From: the human T2T-CHM13v2.0 reference genome, Homo sapiens
Strand: one strand, 5' to 3'
Length of the DNA stretch: 64,000 nt
Assembly (NCBI RefSeq): GCF_009914755.1
Contig: NC_060927.1
Shown piece after piece: positions 39,540 through 54,343 of this stretch. The number at the start of each line of letters is the position of its first letter. The first letter of the stretch is position 1. The notes beneath the pieces were generated by a model that was not told the origin of the DNA, did not search any database, and saw only the letters and a list, made by a program, of their open reading frames with translations. The translations under genes were made by a program, and so were the position numbers.

Positions 39540-40350
39540 ACACATTCTCCTCTAAAATGCCCCAGGCCAGTTTATTCTATGTGCTAGACTGTTTTTGTAC
39601 AACCCCAATGGCTGAGAATTCATCGCCTCATGAGATAGACCAGTCTACCTTCAGATAGCTTGTTTTTTTCCTTCACAGACAGGGTCTCGCTCTGTCATCC
39701 AGGCTGGAGTGCCGTGTGTGATATTAGCTCAGTACAAACTGTAACTCCTGGGCTCAAGCGATCTTCCCACTTTGCCTCCACAAAGTGCTGGGATTACAGG
39801 TGACAGCCACCACTCCTGGCCTCAGATAGCTTCTAATTTTTAAGGAAGTCTTTTTTATTGACTTGGAAGTCACCTTTCTGAAACCTCCTTTCACTGTCTA
39901 GTTAGCTAGTATATTTGTCTTGGGGGCCTAAAACAGCATGTGAACTTAGTAGGTGCTCAATATATAACTGCTGGATAAATAGATCTAGTTCTATTTTTTG
40001 AAGTCATAAACTTCATAATCCCTGTTCCAAATAGCAAATTGAATATTTGGACACTACTCTCAACATTTTCTTTAGGTTCAGTGTTGCAGTTCCATCACAT
40101 GCTTTTCCCAGTGTATGGTTTCCAGATTTCATTCACCGTCCTGGGTGTTTTTTTCTGACCTTCAATAATTGTATTAACTTTCTTTGAAGTAAGGAGGACA
40201 GAACTGAGTCCAATGAACTAAGTGTGATTTGCAAGAGTGAGTATGTAGAGCCATTGAGTCTATCAGTCTGGGCTCTTTTGTTTATGAATTCTGAGTATGA
40301 CTGTAAAAACTCATGGGCTAGGACATTCACATGGTTGACTCCTACTAAGG
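39540..40350. mobile_element. L3/CR1-like fragments
   Basis: gatagcttctaattttaaggaagtctttt..., cagaactgagtccaatgaactaagtgtgattt; highly decayed. Confidence 0.4.
39662..39821 (-). mobile_element. FRAM (free right Alu monomer)
   Basis: Single monomer with right-arm insert; TSD tcagatagctt at 39651-39661 and 39822-39832. Confidence 0.85.
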
Positions 40351-40375
40351 GTGTGGATCACTCAATTCTCTAAAT

Positions 40376-40592
40376 CAGGAGTCAGTAAAGGGTGACCCAT
40401 GGGTCAAATCTAATACACTGTTTTTCTAAACAAAGTTTTTTTGGAACACTGGCCATGACCACTCATTTATGTATGATCTAAGGCTGCTTTTGCACTACAA
40501 TGGCAGAATCAGTAACTCTGACAGAAAGTGTATGGTCTGCAAAGACCAAAATGTTTCCATCTGGCCTTTTACAGAAAAGGTTTAGAGGCAAC
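40376..40592. mobile_element. MER58A-like hAT-Charlie MITE
   Basis: aaagttttttggaacac...actcatttatgtat...ggctgcttttgcactacaatggcag...ctggccttttacagaaaaggttt. Confidence 0.85.
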
Positions 40593-40947
40593 CATTCCCT
40601 AAGTCATCCTTGCCCATGGTCACTGAAGTTCAGGCCAACAGAAGAAGTACTTCCTAATAACACAAACCCAAGAAACCTGGGAGATTACTCCCTCTTAGGC
40701 AAAGCTGAACTTTTGCCCTTTTTCAAATTAGTGATGTCCTAACCTTTGTAATCAGTAGAATTATCTGTGAAATTTTTTTTAGAAGTGCCAATTTCTAGAC
40801 ATCAAATTAGGTCAACCAACTCAAATGTAAGGCTTTGAATAAACTCTTGCATGAGTACCTAGGATGTCTTAGTCCCATCCTTCTACCATGGTACTCTTCT
40901 GCTTATTGGAACATGATCTCTGTTTTCATTGCGGTGGTGGTGGTTTC

Positions 40948-42080
40948 CTTAATTTTTACTTTGAAATAATTTTAGATCCACATAGAAGTTGCAAAAATAG
41001 TATAGAGAGAATTTCTGTGTAGTATTCATCTAGATTCCTGCAATGACAACAGCAACCAAAACAAAATTACCAAAACCAGAAAATTGACATTAGACAGTAT
41101 TATTAAAAACTAGAGATTATATTCACATTTTACCAGCTTTAACATGTAATCTTGTTTAAATATACATTTCTATGAAATTTTATCACATGTGTAGATTCTT
41201 GTAATCATCATCATGATCAGGAATAGACTGCTATATTGCTCCAAAAAATAGTTATTTGTACTACCCCATTAAAGTCATAGCTTACCTCCAACCCTAAATC
41301 CTGGGAACTATGCTATGTCTTCAATGTAATTTGGAGAATGTCACATAAGTGGAATAGTAAAAGATGGATCACTTTGAGATTGGTTTTGTTCACTCACCAT
41401 AATGTCCTTGAGATCTATCCAAATTATACATATCAATAGTTTATTCCTCTTTACTGCTGAGTGGTATCCCACTGTATCTCTGTATCACAGTTTGTTAATC
41501 CACTTGCCCAATGAAAGACAGGTTGTTTCTACTGTATGTGAGGATTAACAGAACTGTTATAAATGTCTGGAGTAAATACCCAGCAGTAAGATTGCTGGGT
41601 CATATGGCAAGTATATGTTTACTTTTACAAGAAAATGCCAAATTCTTTCTCACCAGCAATGTATAAAACTCCCTGATGCTCTACATCCTTATCAGAACTT
41701 AGCATTGATGGGATTTGTTATTTATTTTACACATTCTAATAGGTGTGTAGAGGTATCTTATAATGTGCTGATTTGCATTTCCCTGATAGCTAATAATGTG
41801 GAATATCTTTTTATGTGCTTTTCATTGTACCATCTGTGCATTATTTGACAAAATGTCTGCTCATGGCTTTCGTCTATTTTCTAAGTGGATTATTTGTTTT
41901 CTTGCTGTCAAGTTTAAAGTACTTTTTATATATTCTAGATATAACATCTTTTCCAGATATGTGAATTAAAAAATTTTCTCCTGGACTAATATTTCTTTTT
42001 TGCAGACCATAAGTTTTTAATTTTGATGAAATCCAATTTATCTTTTTTTTTCTCTTACGGATCATGCTATTGGCATCATT
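40948..42080 (-). mobile_element. L1MC-like 3' region
   Basis: ttgaaataattttagatccacatagaagttgcaaaaatagta ... gattgctgggtcatatgg ... atttgcatttccctgatagctaataatg; ORF-track peptide VISRIYKKYFKLDSKKTNNPLRK is ORF2-like. Confidence 0.85.
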
Positions 42081-42084
42081 CTTT

Positions 42085-42720
42085 GTCAGTCAGGGTCCAA
42101 TCAAAAAAGAGAAACTGGCATCGTAATTTGGACAGGGGAAATTTAATGTTAACTGTAACAAGGGATTGCTTAATGACGATTGTATAGTAAGAAATAAAGA
42201 CATCTCCAAATAATATATGAATAGCAGATATAAGGAGCAGTCATGCCTACCTAGGGCTGAAATAATGTGCTTAGAGAAAAGAGCTCACCCTTCCCAGGGC
42301 TGAGCTCTAGACCTTGTTGGACACGGTTTGACCGTGGCTCACTGAATGGTAGAGAGGTTGCCATGAGGCATCACAGGTGGAACTTGCTAACCCTCTAGGG
42401 TGCCACTAGAAGTGGTTCATGGGAAAATGTCTCACTAGAGGCACAATGTTACAAAACTGCTTTAGGGGTGTGTTGAGAGAGGCCACTAGTCTGTGGGCAT
42501 TTCTGGACACCATGCACTGCACAAGCTGGGCATCTTTCGAAGAAGCTATCTGCACCGCAGGAGTCTGGTCAGTGAACATCCAAGACCAAGAAGACAGACC
42601 TCTTCCTCCTGCGATGTCTCTCCAGTGCCCCCTGCTGACAAAGGTTAACATCATGCCAGCTTATAAAGAAGGATATGTAAAGGGTCTAGATCCATTGTCA
42701 CAAGATGGGAATGGTCAAGA
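42085..42720 (-). mobile_element. Ancient ERVL LTR (LTR40/LTR50/LTR52-like)
   Basis: tgtcagtcagggtccaatca...; ctctccagtgccccctgctgacaaaggttaacatcatgccagc. Confidence 0.6.
42623..42640 (-). promoter_or_regulatory. Candidate CTCF motif inside the ERVL LTR
   Basis: Minus strand reads tgtcagcagggggcactg, close to the CTCF core CCASYAGRKGGCRS. Confidence 0.45.
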
Positions 42721-43794
42721 GTGTCCTGCCCTGCAGTTTTACCAGTGCCCTTTGGAGGGGGGACTGCCTCTGCTTGCATTAGTGCTGAGCACAAATAGCA
42801 GGACTCTTTGATCCAGATTCTGAAGTGTCAGGGAGGAGAGGGAGAGGTGTGGTAGGTTTGAGATGCTCTCCTGGAATACAGTGGGTATAATCAAAAGAGT
42901 CCCATCCTACAAGGCTGTCTCTTCCAAGTTTAGAATATGACTGAAAAGAGCAGACTTGTCTTGGGACTATTTTGTCTGAACCCATTGGTACTTCTAGCTT
43001 GCAGACTGCTCCTGTGCCCAGACCGGCATATATAGGAGGCAAACAAAACAAAATAAAGGAAACAAACCAAAAATGGGGAACTTATCACTGAGTCATCCTG
43101 TAAGTCTTGAGGCTGCTAGACAGTCCTACCTCTCTCCCTACTTCTCTTTCTTCAAAGTCTCCTAATGCTTGGCTTATGTGTTCTGTCCAGACTTTATATT
43201 CATAATTAATGCAGGAGAAATAAGGTGAAATGAGTTTACTCCATTTTCTTTTGAACCAGAAACTTTCCATGTCCTAAGTTTAAACTGAATTATTTGCTAG
43301 AAACACGTCAAGGTTTATTTCACATGTACGTGTTTCTGAGCCACAGTGTTACATGATCAGCTGGCTCAGGAAGATGCCTTCTAAAAAAATGCTTATCCTG
43401 ATCCACAGGCTCACTTACTTGATAAAGCTGGAGATGGGTCCTAATGCAAACATTAGAGAGACACTTATGTTATTATGAAGGGCAAGCTCTACTAAATACT
43501 GGAGCCGACTTGAGAAGACAACTTGAATTGTCCTAAACTGCCAGCTGGTGGTGGCAAATGCCCATTAGGCATCATTGATTCTTACCTTTCTGGCACATCA
43601 AGGGACCTGGAATGCCTTGGCACTCTTTTCTGCTATACCATCATTTCTGCTCTTGCTAGGTTAGCTATCATCTTCCTCTATGTTTTTTTAATATAGATAA
43701 CATCTCTTTGATTCCTCCTTTCACCATTTTTCCCATCTGTGAGGATTACAGAGAAGTGGGATATTCCACCTCTGCCTCAAAATTCTAATTCACA

Positions 43795-43985
43795 TTAATA
43801 ATAATGATCATAATAAATAGTAACAGTAACTTTCTATCATTTCAGAACACCTACTATGTGGCAGGCCTTATGTTAGAGGCCTTAATTGCATTATTGATCA
43901 TCCTCCCTATGATTTGTTACTTGACAGATGAAGAAAATTAAATGGTACAGCTGAGATTAGAAACCTAATGTCTGAGTCCAAATCT
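43795..43985 (-). mobile_element. MIR fragment running continuously across the outer edge of the left inverted repeat
   Basis: taataataat...gaacacctactatgtggcaggcc...ttgacagatgaagaaaatta...cagctgagattagaaacc. Confidence 0.7.
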
Positions 43986-44558
43986 CATCTTCTTTTCCCA
44001 AAAAAAAACCCTTTATCTGAATCCCACTACCACCATCACCACATCTGTACCACCCCTTTTGCCTGTACTTTTAGGCACACCTCACAGTATTTACATTTCA
44101 GTTTTCTCTACTAAGCAAGACTGAAAGCTCCTTGATAGCAATGAATTATCTTAAAACACCTACCTAACACAGGATCCTGTGTTAGGATTGGGTCACCAGC
44201 TGATGATTTTTATAGCTGCCAATTTAGAAGTTGGCCGTCTCTGAAAACTGGCTTAGCAGAGAGATTGAAACAATTTATCTAGAGAGTCACAAATTCAGCC
44301 GATGACCAGCTGAGTGGAAGTGATGCTCAGTGAATAATGAGGCTAATCTGACTGATGATCAAGATTGAGTCATGCATGCATATGAGCACCCAACTTGAAA
44401 TGAGGTATCACTGTACGCATTAATTTATAACTACATATGAAGAAAAGGAGACAAGTCTCATAAACCCAAGTGCTGGCCTTTCAAACACACACATTTCATT
44501 CAGAGACTCAAATTTGACAATGATACCTGATAAAGGCTCACATCAGTCATATCACAGC
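43889..44558 (+). repeat. Inverted repeat, left arm (670 bp; ancestral copy)
   Basis: Reverse complement of 48788-49458 with 2 substitutions (44451, 44472) and a 1-bp indel (C3 vs C4 near 44010). Confidence 0.98.
44163..44186. repeat. Perfect 24-bp palindrome cctaacacaggatcctgtgttagg (second copy at 49160-49183)
   Basis: Self-reverse-complementary, no loop. Confidence 0.97.
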
Positions 44559-45807
44559 CTCCATCCTGATTACAAAGTGCATACTGTCCATTTCTCTGAA
44601 TAGGATGCCATGTTATCAAAAGATGATAAATGTGCTTGCAAACAGGTAGGGCTAAAAAAATGCTTGCAATATTTCTTTGTGGTTTTGCAACAACAAACAT
44701 CTTGACTGAATTTCCTATCTGCTGGGAAGTAAAAAGCAAAAGGCTTTAATGATCAGGAAAGTTCAAATGTAAAATATAAAAATGAAAGAATCTGGGCATT
44801 GGGACAGACATTAGGTCACATCTAGTACGACCACAATCCAGAGCTGGAAGTTGCTCCAAAATATTCCTAGCAACCAATCACATAGCCTGTATTAGAATTC
44901 CTCCAAAGTCAGGAAAATATCTAGAGTGCTCTATTTGATAGAATGTTTATTTGTTCATTGATTCACTCATATATTTGTATGATGACTATTCATATCATAC
45001 TTTTTTTTAAACTGGCTAGGACCATGCAAAGCATTAGGAAAATAGCTATGAACAAGATACATATTCTTGAAGAACTTCTATTCTACTGGAAGTGGCAGAC
45101 AATGGCAAAACCGAAAAATAAATGATTTACAAATGTAATGCAGGGTCCCACATGTGGTATCAAAAGCAAGTTCTTATTTATATTGAATCTAATAAGTTCC
45201 TCTGTATTTTTCACTGATTAGCTCTGCTATATACTTTCACGCCATTAGAATAAGGCTTTTCATTCCTCTACACTGTAACACACCAGATATTTTAGGACAA
45301 CTCGCACTTTACCCTCAAGCTTTCCAGGAAAAATGCCTCCAGTGTTTTTTCTAACTCTTTAACATTCCATAAAATATTGTGGCCTTTCATTTGCTACTCT
45401 GATCCTACATTGTAGTGGGTTTTTTTTTCTAAATGCAGTTCACAATTAGTTACTTTTGCTTATTATCACTTTTGTTAGAATTAATTATATGGCCCCAATA
45501 TAAATGTTAGAGGGGCTCAAACATGTAGGGGAATAATAGATATTTGGTAAGCGCTGTCTCTACTTCAAATTACAAATCTTATCTAACATCATGATGGTAG
45601 GTCTAATAACACTATAATCTTCCTCATTGTCAATCCTATGTATTTACTGATGCTTCCAAATGCAATCACACACCATATAATATACTCATGCATAACATTA
45701 ATATAGTCATAAAATGGAGAAAATTTGATTGAGGAATGAGAATCAAACATACTTGCTGAAAATATAATACACATAGCTAGATCACAACCTTCCCTAACAG
45801 AAGCAAC

Positions 45808-46068
45808 ATGCTTAGCACTCAGGATCAGTCCTCTGAAGCTGGATTTGCTGACGTCACATCTTGGTTCCAGCTAAATCTCTATCAGATGTGTAACTTTGGG
45901 CAAGTACCTAACTTCTGTGTTCCTTTGTACTATATCTTTATTCACAACATGAAATTAAAAATCTTTGTTGAACTTTTGCTAGAATTTAATGAATCAATTC
46001 ATGTAAAACATCAGAATGCCTAACTTGTACTATGTGCTACAAATGTGTAAGCTATTGTTACTATTATA
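45808..46068 (+). mobile_element. MIR
   Basis: atgtgtaactttgggcaagtacctaacttctgtgttcctt...catgtaaaacatcagaatgcc...gctattgttactatta. Confidence 0.8.
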
Positions 46069-46450
46069 AGAATGTGCAATGCAAATGAAATTTCTTTAGT
46101 TGTTAAAATCAAGCCAGTTTTCCTCAAGAGCTTCCACAATGCTATATTGGAAGAGGATGGGTGGACGTATTTGAAAATTGAACTTACATATTTACATCGT
46201 CACACTCTTTCCTGGTTGAATAGTCCCTTTTGGATATATTTTTTTTTAACTATTTGAAACAGGGATAAAATTATATGTCTCGTTCCTTTCTTGTGCTTGA
46301 TCTACCTCTTCCTTTTCCCTGCCATGTACTTCAATGAGGATTACAATTGTTGATAAGATTTCTTCTAATCTTGCAGTAAAGGCAAAAATGGAAACACAAC
46401 TCTTATCAGGAAAAGGAGGAAGCATGCCAGCGTTTTATATTGAATCTAAT

Positions 46451-46602
46451 AAGCTACACACAGACACACAGACACACACACACACACATACACTTGGGTA
46501 AAGCCTTCATTAAATTACCATACACCACAGAGATTCTAAATAACTGTATATGTGACTTTCATAATGCTAATGTTGAACTATCAGTTGAGGTGCCCAAAAG
46601 CA
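46451..46602 (+). repeat. ~150-bp diverged direct duplication of 50052-50188
   Basis: aagctacac(CA-rich)...ttcattaaattac...agagattctaaata...ttcataatgct.atgttgaact...gaggtgcccaaaagca shared; the ORF-track peptides 46440 and 50036 are visibly paralogous. Confidence 0.9.
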
Positions 46603-48266
46603 TGCCAGTTCCACCAGAAGCTAATATTAATTTAGCTTTTCTAGTGGCCACATGTGTCTACATCTCTGGAGTAGAATCTTTTACTACTCTCTCATGAAAG
46701 CAAAATTCTTAATACTGTTCTAGTGAATTTGACTCTCTCTGTGAGAAACCATGTGTATCCTCCCAATCATCCTGAATCTCAGCTTTCTGTCCATCCATTG
46801 TAATAGCTCTGTAGAAACAGGATAGAAATGGCATTAAAAAAATGGCAACTGGAAGAGACTTAGGCCCACTGGTCAGTTTGCTACTTTAGTCTTGGCTATT
46901 TTTTTCTTAGGCCAGAGTTTTTAAAGCATGAATAAATCTAGTCAGTTTCAGCTCTCTGGAAGGAAAGTTTCAGCATTTATTTGTTTAACTTTCCAAAGCA
47001 GTCCAAAAGCATTACCTGAAGGTAGAACTTAGAATTGGATTTCTAGTCCCAGAGGATACCATTGTTGCCGCTAGAGTCAGTCTAAAGCCCTAGCAGGTAA
47101 CGAGCACATTTGCAGTTAGAGTCTATTAATAAACTGATGAAAGCTCACTGGTTAACAGCCGAAGAATGCCATTTAATGCTCTCTTTTGCTTTTAATGGAC
47201 TGAAACCTGTTAAAATGCTGCTAAATAATAAGGCAAATTTTTCTGGCAGTTGATAGACTAACAGAAACACACACACACTAAGTAGAGGGAATGATTCCAA
47301 TAAGCTCTGCACCAAAAGCAGCTGCAACGTAGCAAAGTTAGAGTCTACACGGTCCAGGGAGCCCCAAAGAAAGACTGGAGATAGAACTCAAGATGTTCCA
47401 TTCAGATAGAACTTCTATGATTACATTATCAACTTTCCTGGGGCTATTAAATCAGTGGAGCAAAAAATAGGCACATTTGGTCCATAGACAGAGAAAGCTG
47501 GGTATAGCAAAGAGAGGATTTAAATGGCACAGCAGATGTCTCAGGGCTCTCGTATCAGGTGCATGCTCTAAAGGGCTCTTCTGAGGGCTCTAATGCAGAA
47601 AATGGCTTATTGAGCACAAAAATGAAAGAAGTTAGGGGATAGAGTTTTAAAGACTTTCCTCATTCTTTAACTTCCCAGATGGGTTATTTCTATCTATTTT
47701 TAGACATGTGATGTCAAACCAACCAATTGATGCAGTCATTTCAGTGAGATTTTGGCTTTTGTGACACCTGTCTGGATTCAACTTCACTTATCAACACTAG
47801 TGTTTTTCCAGCTAGAGGCATTCATTTATCTGCCTCATATCTGCCCCATCCTGTGCTACAGGTTGCCCTTGATGGGCAATGGGTTATGGACCTCTAGAAG
47901 TCTAGGAAGTTCCTGGTTCCAGACCTCCAGCACATTGTGAAGCTCCTGGTTGGGTCAGAATGTGGCCTAATATGAAGGGCATACCAATCTTCTGGTTATG
48001 GAGACCTCTTTCTGACTTCCTTCTTTGTCTGGACCTGAACACAACCTTCTTCTGACCACTTGAGAGGCTACCATTCATCCTTTACATAAGTTCCTAAAAT
48101 TCTTTTGCTTCAAACACATGGCTCTGGTTTGAAGCAAACACATAGCTTAAACCTTATATAAATCTGAATTTAGCCTCTGCTTTCCTTAGCTATCATTATC
48201 AACATGTCTTTCCTATTGTCCCAGTTTTTCCTTTGCTCTCCAACTCTTGTTGTCCTGACTCATCTC

Positions 48267-48451
48267 TTTTGTATTTTTTATATTTTTATTTATTTATACT
48301 TTTAGAGCTGAGGTGTCTAACTCTGCCACTAAGGCTGGATTGCAGTGGTGCAATCATAGCTCACTGCAGCCACAAACTCCTAGGCTCAAGCAATCCTCCT
48401 ACCTCAGCCTCCTGAGTAGTTGGGGCAACAGGTGTGTGTCACCACGTCTGG
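48267..48451 (-). mobile_element. FRAM / AluJ right monomer
   Basis: gcaatcatagctcactgcagcc...ggctcaagcaatcctcctacctcagcctcc. Confidence 0.85.
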
Positions 48452-48509
48452 CTCTTCTTTTGCTCTTGCTGTTATTCCAATCCAAAAAAAAATTTTCAAA
48501 TAAAAAATA

Positions 48510-48790
48510 TCATGATGCTAGGTTTAATTCCCACCTCACGTGCTCTTCTTACAATACAATGTGACTGTCACTCTATCATCATCAGATGGAATCTATCCCC
48601 TACCCCTTTATGCCTGTCTCAACCAATAGAGTATGATGAGAGGGTGTTGTGACTTTACAGTAAAAGTCATAAAAGGAAATACAGCTTCAGCCTAGCTGTC
48701 TTTTTGTAACTCAGATGTGATATTGTGAAAAAGCCTAGGCAATATGTATGGAGAGGTCACTAGTGGGTACTCTGGCAGACAGCCCCAGCT
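48510..48790 (+). mobile_element. MaLR LTR (MLT1G/H-like), 5' half
   Basis: aaccaatagagtatgatg...gtcataaaaggaaatacagcttcagcctagct...ctctggcagacagccccagctg, interrupted by the right repeat arm. Confidence 0.75.
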
Positions 48791-49458
48791 GTGATATGAC
48801 TGATGTGAGCCTTTATCAGGTATCATTGTCAAATTTGAGTCTCTGAATGAAATGTGTGTGTTTGAAAGGCCAGTACTTGGGTTTATGAGACTTGGCTCCT
48901 TTTCTTCATATGTAGTTATAAATTAATGCGTACAGTGATACCTCATTTCAAGTTGGGTGCTCATATGCATGCATGACTCAATCTTGATCATCAGTCAGAT
49001 TAGCCTCATTATTCACTGAGCATCACTTCCACTCAGCTGGTCATCGGCTGAATTTGTGACTCTCTAGATAAATTGTTTCAATCTCTCTGCTAAGCCAGTT
49101 TTCAGAGACGGCCAACTTCTAAATTGGCAGCTATAAAAATCATCAGCTGGTGACCCAATCCTAACACAGGATCCTGTGTTAGGTAGGTGTTTTAAGATAA
49201 TTCATTGCTATCAAGGAGCTTTCAGTCTTGCTTAGTAGAGAAAACTGAAATGTAAATACTGTGAGGTGTGCCTAAAAGTACAGGCAAAAGGGGTGGTACA
49301 GATGTGGTGATGGTGGTAGTGGGATTCAGATAAAGGGGTTTTTTTTTGGGAAAAGAAGATGAGATTTGGACTCAGACATTAGGTTTCTAATCTCAGCTGT
49401 ACCATTTAATTTTCTTCATCTGTCAAGTAACAAATCATAGGGAGGATGATCAATAATG
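48788..49458 (-). repeat. Inverted repeat, right arm (671 bp; derived copy inserted into MLT1)
   Basis: Reverse complement of 43889-44558, ~99.6% identical. Confidence 0.98.
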
Positions 49459-49690
49459 GGCAGCATCAACAGCTTGACATAAGTCAGGAAGGCTTTGAGA
49501 TGACTCTACACAAACTGCCATTTAACTATAACATAAAAGAAACACCCCCTATTCCCCATCTAAGAAAAAAACCCTGCCTACTTAATCACAGTTAACCACC
49601 AGAATCATTAAAGATATTAATAATAAATGATAGAGTTTTTTCACTACCAAGTTTGAGTTGGTTTGTCTGCATACACAGATAACTGGAACA
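49459..49690 (+). mobile_element. MaLR LTR (MLT1G/H-like), 3' half
   Basis: cagcatcaacagcttgacat...taataaatga...caagtttgagttggtttgt...agataactggaaca (typical MLT1 3' end). Confidence 0.75.
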
Positions 49691-49726
49691 ATCATAAATA
49701 GCTTAATATTTGGAGGTATCTAAATT

Positions 49727-49922
49727 AGAGATTTACAAACTATGGCCAAAGTAGGCTTGCTGCCTGTTTTGGTAAAGAAACTTTGATTGGAATACAGCCA
49801 TGCTCATTCATTTACATGTTGCCAATGGTTGCTGTCATGCAAGTGTCAGAATTGAATAGTTATGACAGAGGCTAAAATACTTACTACATGATCCCTTGCA
49901 GAAAAAATAATTGCTAAACACT
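49727..49922. mobile_element. MER58A-like hAT-Charlie MITE
   Basis: caaactatggcc...gctgcctgttttggtaaag...ttggaatacagccatgctcattcatttac. Confidence 0.8.
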
Positions 49923-50609
49923 ACGTAATAGCCAACTGGATGACTTCTCTTTTTCTACTTTTGACAGTGGATATTTACCATGCTGGAACCTAAAGTACTT
50001 GTATCCTATCCAGCTATGTAAAATTTTACTTTTATTTGCACACTAAAGGTAAAGCTACACACACACAGACACACATACACACACATTTAGATAAAGCTTT
50101 CATTAAATTACAACATACCATAGAGATTCTAAATACCATATATGTAATTTTTCATAATGCTGATGTTGAACTGAGGTGCCCAAAAGCAAATACACTCACT
50201 GACCCAACCAGGAAGTGAAACATTATAATAAATGTTTTATTTTTCTTTTTGCAATAAATAAAAAGATGGCTGATACAATCAGAAACTCCTTGTGCAGAAG
50301 CTTACATTGAGTAGGATTTTGATGAGAATAAAGCAAAGTCTTTCTAAGGTTTTTAAGTAATGACAAATATTCTTAAAAACCAATAGCTTAAAAATCAATA
50401 GCTAAATAACCAATTATTAAAAACCAATAGCTAAATTGAATCAACTTGATGACAAAGTGCCCACAAATTGAATGGGTTTGCTTTACGGATTCTAAATGGT
50501 TTTTTATAAACAAACAAAAACAAACAAACAAGAAACAAGACCAAAAAAAAAAAAAAAACTTTGTCAATATACTCCCATTTGATTTCTTTTACTACTCTTC
50601 GTATTACTA

Positions 50610-51093
<484 letters not shown>

Positions 51094-51281
51094 TTATATC
51101 ATTATTCCAGTTATAGTTATTAGGTTAGTTTTTTAATACAAAGGCATATAATCTGGTTAGAATCTTGGACTACACTAAAGAAAGAAACTGATTTTATCTA
51201 TTCTTGCTAGAGCAAGGCACTTTTTAAAGATCCATTCATCTCTCAGGATGGTGAGTACTTCCTCCTGACTAGGACACAAAA

Positions 51282-51307
51282 ATTGATACATACTAGTATG
51301 TATCAAT
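51282..51307. repeat. Perfect 26-bp palindrome attgatacatactagtatgtatcaat
   Basis: Self-reverse-complementary, no loop. Confidence 0.95.
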
Positions 51308-51760
51308 AACTGAAAATAACAAGAAGGCAGATGCTAAGTCACCAACATATTTTTTCTGTATTATTTAGCAAATGAGAGATTTATGTTTCTACTAGTAGAG
51401 AGATAACTATGATTTCTGTCCCATTTCTTATATTCATGGTCTTCTGTGAAGCAAATTCTTTAAAATGGAAATGTTGATAACTTAGAAATAACTTTTAAGC
51501 TTTCTCTTTTTGGATGAGGCTAAAATGTAATATTTTAGATGATGCCATATTGAAATGTTTAAAAAGCTATATAAATTAAAACTATACTTTTATTCATGTT
51601 TAGGAAATTGACACCTTTGTATGAAAAACTATGACCTCTGAACTCTGGACTACACTAACTTATTTTTAAGTAACACTATATACTGATCTAAAATGTCTTA
51701 GTAATATAGGGAGAAGCATGCATTTATGGGCCATGAACAAATCCCTTTTAGGTTAATGGA

Positions 51761-51892
51761 TTTTTTCTTTTTTTTTTTGAGATGGGTCTGGCTATGTTGG
51801 CCAGAGTGGTCTTGAACTCCTAGTCTCAAGCAATCCTCCCATCTCTGCTCCCAAAGTGTTAGGATTACAGCTATGAGCCACTGTGCCCAGCC
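51761..51892 (-). mobile_element. FLAM (free left Alu monomer)
   Basis: Single ~130-bp monomer gagatgggtctggctatgttggccag...tgagccactgtgcccagcc. Confidence 0.88.
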
Positions 51893-54343
51893 TAGATTTT
51901 TAATTGTCAAAATTACTGTACTAAAGATCACCTTAGTTGCCTAAAAGAATTAAAGCACTTTTCCAAAGCAATAATTCCAAGGAGAACATACATATCCTGC
52001 AAAACTCTAATCTCTTTCAATGTAGGTAATCTTGTATCTTTAGCTGATAATTCTGTATATTCATATTGAAAAATTAACATTTGACTGCAAGAAAAACAGG
52101 CTTTTTTTTCCTTTGTCTTTAAGACTTGGGTTTTGTTATTCCAGAGAATTCTGTCATCGTCTAGATAGCATTACAAGAGCAAGCATAAATAGAAAAACCA
52201 AAGTTGAAATGATTTCTCATGCAAATCCAAAATTATCTACTATAAATTTTACACAAAGAGATCAAAGATGTTACTTTCCAATTACCCACAGAGCTTTTCT
52301 TTCTGGCAAAATAATAGCATGATTTTTATTAACAAAATGTAAACCAAGAAAAAGACTTGGTCCTTGACCTTATCTTCTCTTACCAGCTTCCATGCAGGTG
52401 AAAACCACAATAAATATGTGAAGAACATAAACTGTAGGCAGGCACATTAGAGCCTTTTAACAGTTACAGGGTCTTATGTGTAAAGAATAGTATTTACACC
52501 AAAATCCTTAGGAGTGTTTGAGGGTTCTGTAAAATGAAAGGAACTACCTTGAGTAATATAGCAGACATGGTGATATCAGTTAGCAACCAAAATTGGGGTT
52601 AGTGCTAAGGAGGATTATGGGAAGATTAAGTTTAAGTGTTTTGCTGCCTAACAGGAGACAGCAAGGCAAAGGCCCCGGGAGGAATCAAAACGCCACTCAA
52701 ACTCTAGCTCCACTTCTTACGGATTTTTTATCTTGGTCAATTTTCCTAACTCAGAACCTGGTTTCTTTATCTGTAAATTTAAGAACATTTACCTCCAAGA
52801 GTTAGGTATTCCCATAATCTTTACAAGCCTCTAGCACAAAACTTCTCAACCACTTTATCACAGCTTTTTGTTCTCTGTCTCCTCCATTTAAATGAATCAC
52901 TAGAGGACAGAAGCTACATCTCATGACTAGAAATACTGAGTACTCAATGTTGATTAAATGAAACATTTCATCAAAGGATTTATTTTATAAATTACATACC
53001 CTTGACATTAAGTTTAACAAATACTGGTTAACAATATCTGTGTCCCCGTCTACCTCCTTTATAGGAAAAGATTATTTCAGTTGCTCTAGACGTTCATGGC
53101 ACTGTATCTGCTATTTTCTTCAAACAAATATTTTCTACCCTGGATTATATTTTGTGTACCATCCAGAGTGAAGATATCTTAAGGCTAGAACTCCTGTTCT
53201 GCATTAGTTTTCATTGCTTCGATATCTCATATATTACAACAATATTTGTAGATTTAAGAATGAATATGAATTAATAGATAGATAAAAGGAAAAATAAATA
53301 ACCTCGAGTTCCATAAGTCAGACTCAAATCCCTATTTCAGTGAAGGGTAAGAATGATTTTTTTTTTTTCCCACAAACTCTTCTACTTAATAAGCAGTGTA
53401 GAAGAAAGCATTGTTTTCTTTCTAGCTTTACCTAATTCTACTAGAGAGCTGGCAGAGAAATAGAAAGTATGGCAAAAAATAACATAAGTTCCAACAGCAC
53501 AATGAAAATAGAAATCAATCCTAAGAATATCACTCAAAACCTTATAGTTACATGGAAATTAAACACCCTGCTCCTGAATTACTTTGGGTAAATAATGAAA
53601 TTAAGGCAGAAATCAAGAAATTCTTTGAAACTAATGAGTGCAAAGGTACAACATACCACAACCTCTGCACAGCTAAGGCAGTTTAAGAGGGAAATTTATA
53701 GCACTAAAGGCCCACATTGAAAAGTGAAGAAGATATCAAATTAACAACCTAACATCACAATTAGAGAAACTGGAGAAACAAGAGGAAACCAGCCCCAAAA
53801 CTGGCAGAAGACAAGAAATAAAGAAAATCAAAGCTGAACTGAAGGAAAGTGAGATGTAAAAAAACATACAAAAGATCAACAAATCCAGGAGTTGGCTTTT
53901 TGAAAGAATTAATAGATAGATAAAACACTAGCTAGACTAAGAAAGAAAAAAGAGAGAAGTTTGAAATAAACATGATCAGAAATGATAAACGAGATATGAC
54001 TACTGACCCCACAGAAATACACAAAACCCTCAGAGACTACTATGAATACGTTTATGCACACAAGCTAGAAAACCTAGAAGAGATGGATAAATTCCTGGAA
54101 ACATACAATCTTCCAAGATTGAACAAGGAAGAAATTGAATCCCTGAAAAAACCAATAACAAGTTCCAAAATTGAATCAGTGATAAAAAGCCTGGTAACCC
54201 CAAAAAGCCCAGGACCAGGGAAATTCACAGCTGAATTCTACCAGATGTATAAAGATGAGCAGGTATTATTCCCACTGAAACTCTTCTAAAAAACTTGAGG
54301 CGGAGGCACTTCTCCCCAACTCATTCTATGAGGCCAGCATCAT

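What the first reader, a model, noticed from the sequence alone, without database searches (positions are those of the whole stretch)
48510..49690. Right arm splits an MLT1 LTR, revealing duplication polarity, mechanism and ancestral orientation
Seen: MLT1-like sequence ends ...gacagccccagctg at the inner edge of the right arm and resumes cagcatcaac... at its outer edge, colinear and on the same strand. A MIR runs unbroken across the outer edge of the left arm. The inner junction shares GCTG between host and insert; there is no TSD or polyA tail, and relative to the remembered consensus a short stretch of LTR is lost. Inference: the right arm is a templated inverted insertion copied from ~4 kb away (FoSTeS/MMBIR-like). 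Because both LTR halves are still colinear, this haplotype has the pre-inversion orientation; the inverted allele would carry the 5' LTR half reversed beside the left arm.
Basis: partly seen in the sequence, partly recalled or inferred. Interest (0 to 1): 0.7.

Follow-up and report, generated by a model that had tools for sequence, protein, structure and literature searches.

The report
Young inverted copy splits old LTR
A 671-base stretch of ordinary intron DNA was copied backwards and dropped into the middle of a very old retrovirus-like LTR about 4 kb away; this makes a pair of inverted repeats of the kind known to flip DNA, and it is a tidy but ordinary structural change.

Summary
Window 43889-44558 and 48788-49458 are inverted copies: 670 and 671 bp, 2 substitutions and 1 one-base indel, 4229 bp apart, and the only two copies in CHM13.

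The right arm sits inside one old dispersed LTR-like repeat. Its two pieces, about 48514/48528-48791 and 49459-49690, lie on the same strand. Both match the same genomic copies, and the matching parts are contiguous in 12 of 12 of those copies. About 15 alignment columns of the LTR are missing at the insertion site. The inner junction shares GCTG with the source. There is no target-site duplication and no poly(A).

An abundant MIR-like repeat runs across the outer edge of the left arm. So the left arm is the source and the right arm is the copy.

The LTR is real and old. Pairwise K2P to other copies is about 0.41 for both halves, which puts it on the order of 100 My. The names MLT1/MaLR and MIR rest on recall; no tool here could test them.

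The duplication is young, nominally about 3 My (0.4-11 My). A microhomology-primed template switch is the best mechanism but is inferred. Whether an inverted allele exists could not be tested. This is a new member of a known kind, of modest interest.

The parts
43810..43982 (.). Old abundant interspersed repeat (MIR-like; the name is recalled, not tested). It runs unbroken across the outer edge of the left arm at 43888|43889.
   Evidence: The 24-mer 43849-43872 has 176 genome matches at <=3 mismatches against 0 for the control. nhmmer hits in 16 of 29 loci; 6 alignments cross the edge; extremes 43810 and 43982. Arm-internal part against reversed control: p=0.0018. Family members align with each other across the edge-equivalent.
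43889..44558 (+). Left arm: the source copy of the duplicated stretch (670 bp).
   Evidence: Continuity with the flanking old repeat.
44559..48787 (.). Spacer between the arms (4229 bp). This is the segment that would flip if the arms recombined. Its right end holds the 5' piece of the LTR.
   Evidence: No RefSeq exon or functional element lies in 40000-54000. No Rfam family reaches gathering score in 43000-50500.
48514..48791 (+). 5' piece of the old LTR-like repeat. Homology to other copies is detectable from 48527/48528. The start at 48514 rests only on a possible 5-bp flank repeat. The last 4 bases are shared with the insert.
   Evidence: nhmmer against L029, L038, L026 at E 1e-10 to 1e-9 and L034 at 2e-3. 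Alignment A4. K2P 0.411-0.455.
48788..49458 (-). Right arm: inserted inverted copy of the left arm (671 bp), nested in the LTR.
   Evidence: It interrupts a unit that is contiguous in 12 of 12 aligned copies.
48788..48791 (.). GCTG: a 4-base microhomology at the inner junction. It is present both in the LTR family at this column and in the source next to its first copied base.
   Evidence: source flank; LTR copies at columns 206-209.
49459..49690 (+). 3' piece of the same LTR-like repeat, ending in CA at 49689-49690.
   Evidence: nhmmer against L027, L029, L028, L023, L036 at E 4e-9 to 9e-8; hits end at 49684-49704. Alignment A5. K2P 0.385-0.418. Terminal letters.
48509..48513 (.). Possible 5-bp flank repeat (ATCAT) of the LTR. 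Its partner is at 49691-49695. This is weak and may be chance.
   Evidence: My own estimate of the chance of such a match within the roughly 33 admissible start positions is about 3%. The LTR would then not begin with TG.

Best explanation
An ancient solo LTR-like repeat lay intact in intron 4 of ZNF385D, on the strand opposite to the gene. It is of the MaLR/MLT1 type by recall, about 510 bp long, and on the order of 100 My old. Much later, probably within the last few million years, a DNA end inside this LTR paired through four bases (GCTG) with the opposite strand of unique intron DNA 4.2 kb away. It was extended for about 667 bases along that template. It then came back to the LTR about 15 bases further on, without homology. 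The result is a 671-bp inverted copy (right arm, 48788-49458) of 43889-44558 (left arm) nested in the LTR, with a small loss of LTR sequence, no target-site duplication and no poly(A).

Shown: the two copies, which one is the source, the split of one LTR, the missing columns and the shared four bases.

Inferred: that the copying was a microhomology-primed template switch (FoSTeS/MMBIR-type, at a fork or at a break), and the date.

Consequence: a 670-bp, 99.6%-identical inverted repeat pair around a 4.2-kb spacer. That is within the range known to mediate inversions by homologous recombination. In this haplotype the spacer has the orientation of the chromosome before the duplication.
For: Arms:
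- 670/671 nt, 2 substitutions and 1 indel, 4229 nt apart, the only two copies in the genome.

One LTR, split:
- Left and right pieces each hit dispersed copies at E 1e-8 to 1e-10.
- L029 carries both, colinear on one strand.
- 12 of 12 copy-to-copy alignments cross the junction-equivalent.
- Both halves have the same divergence: K2P 0.411-0.455 (n=4) and 0.385-0.418 (n=5).

Loss at the site:
- 15 columns. They belong to a motif with 193 genome matches against 1 for the control.

Microhomology:
- GCTG is present in the source flank and in the LTR copies.

Source polarity:
- An abundant repeat crosses the outer edge of the left arm.
- The same query matches the right arm only from the edge inward.

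Other support:
- Both substitutions lie within 108 nt of the microhomology junction. This would fit error-prone synthesis after a switch, but with only 2 sites it is suggestive at best.
- Inversions by NAHR are reported between >90% identical inverted repeats of 654 bp to 24.2 kb (PMC6748972, passage seen).
- MMBIR is described as template switching at microhomology that yields templated insertions (PMC8421209, abstract in the listing).
Against: - The second junction has no microhomology, so the return step could equally be plain end joining.
- Nothing in the sequence shows replication rather than break repair.
- The family names come from recall. The RefSeq mask does not flag either LTR piece or the MIR-like stretch. 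Direct whole-genome BLAST with either LTR piece found only itself, plus one weak chrX match for the right piece.
- The MIR-like continuity is statistically modest. The arm-internal part alone gave no nhmmer hit at E<=1 in 29 loci, and only 6 of 29 loci gave edge-crossing alignments. The part outside and 5' of the seed showed no signal over control (p=0.45).
- The register of the missing 15 columns is ambiguous, because the family copies hold a short internal direct repeat there. Part of the loss (up to 12 of the 15) could therefore be an older slip unrelated to the insertion.
- The age rests on 2 substitutions, and gene conversion between the arms would make the pair look younger than it is.
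Confidence: 0.72

Rival explanations
1. Break repair without a replicative switch. A double-strand break in the LTR lost a few bases and was sealed by end joining. The repair captured either a free DNA fragment or a copy made from ZNF385D pre-mRNA, that is, a templated sequence insertion of the class without TSD and poly(A).
For: - There is no homology at the outer junction, and there is a small deletion at the site.
- The + strand of the insert reads in the sense of the ZNF385D transcript, because the gene is on the - strand and the source lies in its intron 4.
- No TSD and no poly(A).
Against: - Four bases of shared sequence sit exactly at one junction. That is more than blunt joining needs, and I estimate it would be expected in about 1% of random joins.
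- The source lies only 4.2 kb away on the same molecule and in inverted orientation. This is the usual geometry of a strand switch.
- The ends of the copied stretch do not coincide with any feature of an RNA.
Confidence: 0.2
2. Inversion with duplication. Staggered breaks inverted the 4.9-kb segment and duplicated one end in a single event. A later recombination between the new arms flipped the spacer back to what is seen in CHM13.
For: The final structure would be identical, with the same two novel junctions beside the right arm. This is reasoning only; no call tells the two histories apart. Recurrent flipping is common for inversions flanked by inverted repeats (PMC6748972, passages seen).
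Against: It needs two events where one suffices. The LTR halves are colinear in this haplotype, so no net inversion is visible.
Confidence: 0.03
3. Opposite polarity: the right arm is the original and the left arm is the copy.
For: None found. It is considered only because the two arms are nearly identical.
Against: - The right arm would have to be original sequence that happens to sit where 12 of 12 related LTR copies are contiguous.
- The left arm would have to have landed so as to complete an old repeat across its outer edge.
Confidence: 0.02

Closest known systems
FoSTeS/MMBIR-type templated insertions (template switching at microhomology)
   Same: - The inserted stretch is templated by nearby sequence on the same chromosome.
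- It is inverted, as expected for a switch to the other strand.
- There are 4 bases of microhomology at one junction, a small loss at the acceptor site, and no TSD or poly(A).
- The definition is as given in the abstract of PMC8421209 (listing).
   Different: Only one junction shows microhomology. The event is simple (one insert), evolutionary rather than pathogenic or somatic, and fixed in a reference haplotype. Dependence on replication cannot be shown from sequence.
Short-range template-switch mutations in human and great-ape genomes (PMC5453318, PMC7954356; abstracts in the listing)
   Same: A switch to a nearby alternative template creates an inverted copy of neighbouring sequence, and so a new inverted repeat.
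   Different: The abstracts call those events 'short' and 'short-range' and describe them as looking like local mutation clusters. From recall, they are tens of bases long. Here the copy is 671 bp, made from 4.2 kb away.
Inverted-repeat-flanked polymorphic inversions (InvFEST HsInv series; PMC3961182, PMC6748972)
   Same: The arm length (670 bp) and identity (99.6%) fall within the reported range for NAHR inversions: >90% identical, 654 bp to 24.2 kb (passage). The would-be inversion, about 4.9 kb between arm centres, is within the reported sizes.
   Different: No second orientation has been seen here. 'chr3' does not occur in the main text of either paper. Their supplementary tables are closed, so the locus may or may not be listed.
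MaLR (ERVL-MaLR) MLT1 solo LTRs
   Same: - A dispersed old family: 193 motif matches against 1 for the control.
- Unit of about 500 bp ending in CA.
- Divergence fits a eutherian-age family. Print says MLT1 members other than MLT1A1 and MLT1C2 are widespread in eutherians and absent from opossum (PMC10735291, passages).
   Different: The name and any subfamily are recalled from the look of the sequence. No Dfam/Repbase model was available. The putative first bases are not TG.

Membership tests
MaLR / MLT1 LTR | Significant match to the curated MLT1 LTR models (Dfam/Repbase), with consecutive model coordinates on both sides of the insert | not testable with these tools
   No repeat library is on hand. 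The RefSeq mask gives no names and does not cover these stretches. Smit 1993 is not held. A 20-mer of the family was found in no paper. As a proxy, natural copies were used to test that the pieces are consecutive, and they are.
MaLR / MLT1 LTR | Member of a dispersed, many-copy old family | tested here: met
   13 related loci on 7 chromosomes were recovered from one copy. A family 20-mer has 193 matches at <=2 mismatches against 1 for the control.
MaLR / MLT1 LTR | LTR termini TG...CA and a 5-bp target-site duplication (features recalled) | tested here: inconclusive
   The 3' end is CA at 49689-49690. ATCAT occurs at 48509-48513 and at 49691-49695. With that start, however, the first bases are not TG, and homology to copies is only detectable from 48527/48528.
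MaLR / MLT1 LTR | Age compatible with a family present across eutherians (PMC10735291, passages) | tested here: met
   K2P to 9 copy segments is 0.385-0.455, mean 0.415. Halved, and using recalled neutral rates of 1-2.2e-9 per site per year, this gives roughly 95-210 My. The estimate is rough, because the copies were picked as the best matches.
MIR SINE (repeat across the left-arm edge) | Match to the curated MIR model | not testable with these tools
   The name is recalled. Shown here: abundance (176 matches against 0 for the control) and continuity across the edge.
FoSTeS/MMBIR-type templated insertion | Insert templated by nearby sequence, with microhomology at the switch points | tested here: inconclusive
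   The template is 4.2 kb away. There are 4 shared bases at the inner junction and none at the outer.
FoSTeS/MMBIR-type templated insertion | Arises during replication or break-induced replication | not testable with these tools
   Sequence alone cannot show it.
L1-mediated retro-insertion | Poly(A) tail, target-site duplication, insertion at an A/T-rich nick site | tested here: not met
   There is no A-run at either arm end. The flanks align to different columns of the LTR family, so there is no TSD, and about 15 columns are lost rather than duplicated.
Inverted-repeat-mediated (NAHR) polymorphic inversion | Highly identical inverted repeats of sufficient length at both ends | tested here: met
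   670/671 bp with 2 substitutions and 1 indel. The reported range is 654 bp to 24.2 kb at >90% identity (PMC6748972).
Inverted-repeat-mediated (NAHR) polymorphic inversion | Both orientations observed among chromosomes | not testable with these tools
   Only one haplotype is available. Paper searches with ZNF385D plus inversion terms found 0, 0 and 12 papers, none about a human inversion here. Supplements are closed.

The most novel reading that the evidence does not exclude
The right arm is a human-lineage-specific insertion that may still be polymorphic. It created an uncatalogued, recurrently flipping inversion of about 4.9 kb inside intron 4 of ZNF385D. The two base differences clustered within 108 nt of the microhomology junction are not later divergence but the error trail of the low-fidelity synthesis that made the copy. 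If so, the event is even younger than 3 My, and it is a rare fixed germline example in which the direction of a template switch can be read from its mutations.
Probability: 0.25. Interest if true: 0.55.

Novelty: new member of a known kind. Interest (0 to 1): 0.33.

Why it matters
The split LTR works as a built-in outgroup. Without any other genome, it tells which arm of an inverted repeat is the copy, what the junctions looked like when it formed, and which orientation of the spacer is the original one. That makes the locus a clean worked example of how a template-switch-type insertion seeds a substrate for later inversions.

In itself it is an intronic change with no exon, no RefSeq functional element and no Rfam family nearby. 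No functional effect is suggested.

On the operators' question about the virus remnant:
- It is real.
- It is a non-coding solo LTR of eutherian age.
- It is doubly disabled, as a solo LTR and by the nested insert.
- No inner genes are involved.

Tried and rejected
- Whole-genome BLAST with each LTR piece and with the stretch across the left-arm edge returned only self matches, plus one weak chrX match for the right LTR piece. The first look of that tool is too strict for old repeats.
- nhmmer of the pieces against the window and against 200 kb of neighbouring chr3 found nothing but self. The same was true of the left-edge query against 264 kb.
- What worked was short-pattern searches with mismatches, followed by single-sequence nhmmer on the saved loci.
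- L022 (chr2) matched the 24-mer, but its other weak matches were not colinear. It gave no nhmmer hit and supports nothing.
- L031 and L033 did not align with L029 at E<=0.01.
- The arm-internal MIR-like part alone gave no nhmmer hit. The part outside the seed gave no signal over the reversed control.
- An AATAAA at 49622-49627 is matched exactly in only 1 of 5 aligned copies. I make nothing of it.
- Naming from print failed. Smit 1993 is not held, and a family 20-mer occurs in no paper of the library.
- Whether the locus is a catalogued inversion could not be settled. Three searches and text look-ups in three papers were blank. The relevant lists are in supplements that are closed.
- Rejected readings: an assembly artefact (the arms differ at three places and each has its own unique flanks), L1-mediated insertion, and reverse polarity. 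See the rival explanations and the membership test.

Full report
WHAT IS THERE

The window is wholly intronic. It lies in intron 4 of ZNF385D (NM_024697.3, 8 exons, gene on the - strand).

The repeat finder reports an inverted repeat as two adjoining seeds, 43993-44558/48788-49353 and 43889-44014/49333-49458, at 99% complementarity. A pairwise alignment with flanks fixes the arms at 43889-44558 (670 nt) and 48788-49458 (671 nt).

The arms differ by two substitutions, at right-arm positions 48874 and 48895, and by one extra G in a G-run at 49335. A whole-genome search with the right arm finds these two places and nothing else. So this is a single local duplication of otherwise unique DNA, not a repeat family.

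IS THE RIGHT ARM INSIDE ONE LTR?

The RefSeq mask does not flag the flanks of the right arm. Direct BLAST or nhmmer with them found only themselves. I therefore looked for natural relatives.

- A 24-mer from the right flank found a copy on chr12, L023, at <=3 mismatches (2 non-self matches against 0 for the control).
- That copy, used as a BLAST query, brought in 14 more loci, L025-L038.
- nhmmer with single sequences was run against 16 loci. The left piece hit 5 (L029, L038, L026 at E 1e-10 to 1e-9; L034 at 2e-3; L030 at 0.03). The right piece hit 5 (L027, L029, L028, L023, L036 at E 4e-9 to 9e-8).
- L029 (chr1) carries both, on one strand and in order. Window 48786 pairs with its base 653, and window 49461 with its base 630.
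- L029 aligns with 12 of the 14 other copies at E<=0.01. All 12 alignments run through the junction-equivalent without a break.
- Both halves are equally diverged from their relatives: K2P 0.411-0.455 for the left piece (n=4) and 0.385-0.418 for the right (n=5).

THE JUNCTIONS

I aligned each window piece separately with the same nine copies (A4; A5). The nine copies take the same columns in both alignments.

- The left piece ends at column 209 and the right piece begins at column 225.
- The 15 columns between are filled in 8 of 9 copies and partly in the ninth.
- A 20-mer of stored copies that covers them has 193 genome matches at <=2 mismatches, against 1 for the reversed control. The missing stretch is therefore a conserved part of the family.
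- The family holds a short internal direct repeat at this spot. The register of the gap is therefore ambiguous, and up to 12 of the 15 columns could have been lost earlier by slippage.
- The last four bases before the insert (GCTG, 48788-48791) are present both in the LTR copies at those columns and in the source directly next to the first copied base. That is a 4-base microhomology.
- At the outer junction the source and the LTR share nothing.
- The short string that looks repeated on both sides of the insert aligns to two different places of the family. It is native LTR sequence, not a target-site duplication.
- Neither arm end has an A-run.

WHICH ARM IS THE SOURCE?

Besides the LTR argument, the left arm is embedded in an older repeat.

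- A 24-mer that lies 17-40 nt outside the arm has 176 genome matches at <=3 mismatches, against 0 for the control.
- I examined 29 of these 176. Sixteen loci gave nhmmer hits to 43780-44060, and 6 alignments cross 43888|43889 by at least 15 nt on each side, reaching up to 43982.
- This evidence is weaker than for the LTR. The arm-internal part alone gave no hit at E<=1.
- A local-alignment score of 43889-43990 against the stretch downstream of the seed in the 29 loci does exceed a reversed control (mean 9.7 vs 8.3, paired Wilcoxon p=0.0018). The stretch upstream of the seed showed nothing (p=0.45).
- Among themselves, family members do align across the edge-equivalent, for example 6 of 9, 4 of 9 and 3 of 3 (hits away from the seed were dropped before counting).
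- The right arm matches this query only from the edge inward.

The left arm is the source and the right arm is the copy.

THE VIRUS REMNANT: REAL, HOW OLD, WHAT FAMILY

- Real: yes. It is a member of a dispersed family, with copies on many chromosomes.
- Extent: homology is detectable from 48527/48528 to 49684-49704. The unit ends in CA at 49689-49690.
- Possible flank repeat: ATCAT at 48509-48513 and at 49691-49695 would put the start at 48514. The first bases there are not TG, and I estimate the chance of such a match at about 3%.
- Size: the LTR proper is then about 510 bp (278 + 232), plus the roughly 15 lost columns.
- No further piece was found elsewhere in the window with whole copies as queries.
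- Age: pairwise K2P of about 0.41 means about 0.21 per lineage. With recalled neutral rates of 1-2.2e-9 per site per year, this is roughly 95-210 My. The estimate is rough, because the copies were the best matches of a search.
- The age fits print. MaLR members other than MLT1A1 and MLT1C2 are widespread in eutherians and absent from opossum (PMC10735291, passages seen). The MLT1 names are listed under MaLR in the Repbase review (PMC5753468, passage seen).
- Family: MaLR/MLT1-type by my recall of how such LTRs read. No tool here could test the name or give a subfamily.
- Naming does not need inner genes. None were looked at.

AGE OF THE DUPLICATION

Two substitutions in 670 nt give d=0.0030 (Poisson 95% interval 0.00036-0.0108). 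At a recalled 0.5e-9 per site per year, that is 3.0 My (0.36-10.8). Gene conversion between the arms would make this an underestimate. If the two clustered substitutions arose in the copying itself, it is an overestimate.

MECHANISM

The best fit is a microhomology-primed template switch. A 3' end ending in GCTG inside the LTR paired with the + strand at the inner end of the source. It was extended leftwards for about 667 nt, which gives the inverted copy. It then rejoined the LTR about 15 nt further on.

This is inference from anatomy. MMBIR is described in just these terms in the abstract of PMC8421209. Small-scale versions that create inverted copies are described for human and ape genomes (PMC5453318, PMC7954356; abstracts).

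A break sealed by end joining after copying or capturing the same stretch, possibly from the intron's own RNA, cannot be excluded.

ORIENTATION AND INVERSION

The LTR half inside the pair is colinear with the half outside. The spacer therefore has the orientation of the pre-duplication chromosome, meaning no flip or an even number of flips.

Arms of this size and identity are within the range reported for NAHR inversions: 654 bp to 24.2 kb at >90% identity (PMC6748972, passage). Whether a flipped allele exists could not be tested.

- Searches for ZNF385D with inversion terms gave 0, 0 and 12 papers, none on a human inversion here.
- 'chr3' is absent from the main texts of PMC3961182, PMC6748972 and bioRxiv 10.1101/501981.
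- The catalogues themselves are in supplements that I could not see.

VERDICT

This is a new instance of known kinds: an old solo LTR, a templated inverted insertion and an inverted-repeat pair. It is of modest interest.

Noticed in passing
window 44163-44186 and 49160-49183: A perfect 24-nt palindrome (12+12, no spacer) sits in the middle of each arm. Only 3 perfect palindromes of >=20 nt with more than two letter types occur in the 64-kb window; two are this one, and the third is at 51285-51304. It lies far from both breakpoints, so any role in the event is unclear.
   Followed up: partly
window 48874 and 48895: Both substitutions between the arms lie 21 nt apart and within 108 nt of the microhomology junction. 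The chance that both fall that close to one given end is about 0.03. This is a possible trace of error-prone copying, but there are only two sites.
   Followed up: partly
window about 48270-48450: An Alu-like fragment in reverse orientation, headed by a T-rich run, lies just upstream of the LTR. It is masked at 48330-48448 and is matched by the Alu-like start of L027. The name is recalled.
   Followed up: no
window 48509-48513 and 49691-49695: The same 5-mer (ATCAT) lies directly beside the putative ends of the LTR. It may be the old target-site duplication, or it may be chance.
   Followed up: partly
L060 and L061 (chrX 71.28 and 71.31 Mb): Two MIR-like loci 28 kb apart on opposite strands carry the identical 24-mer variant and give mirror-image nhmmer hits with the same score. 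This looks like another inverted duplicated pair on chrX.
   Followed up: no
window 50050-50095: An imperfect CA-rich microsatellite-like stretch.
   Followed up: no
chrX 122345850-122345924 (G000:C23): This is the only non-self BLAST match of the right LTR piece (79% over 73 nt, E 1.7e-5). It is probably another member of the family and was not fetched.
   Followed up: no
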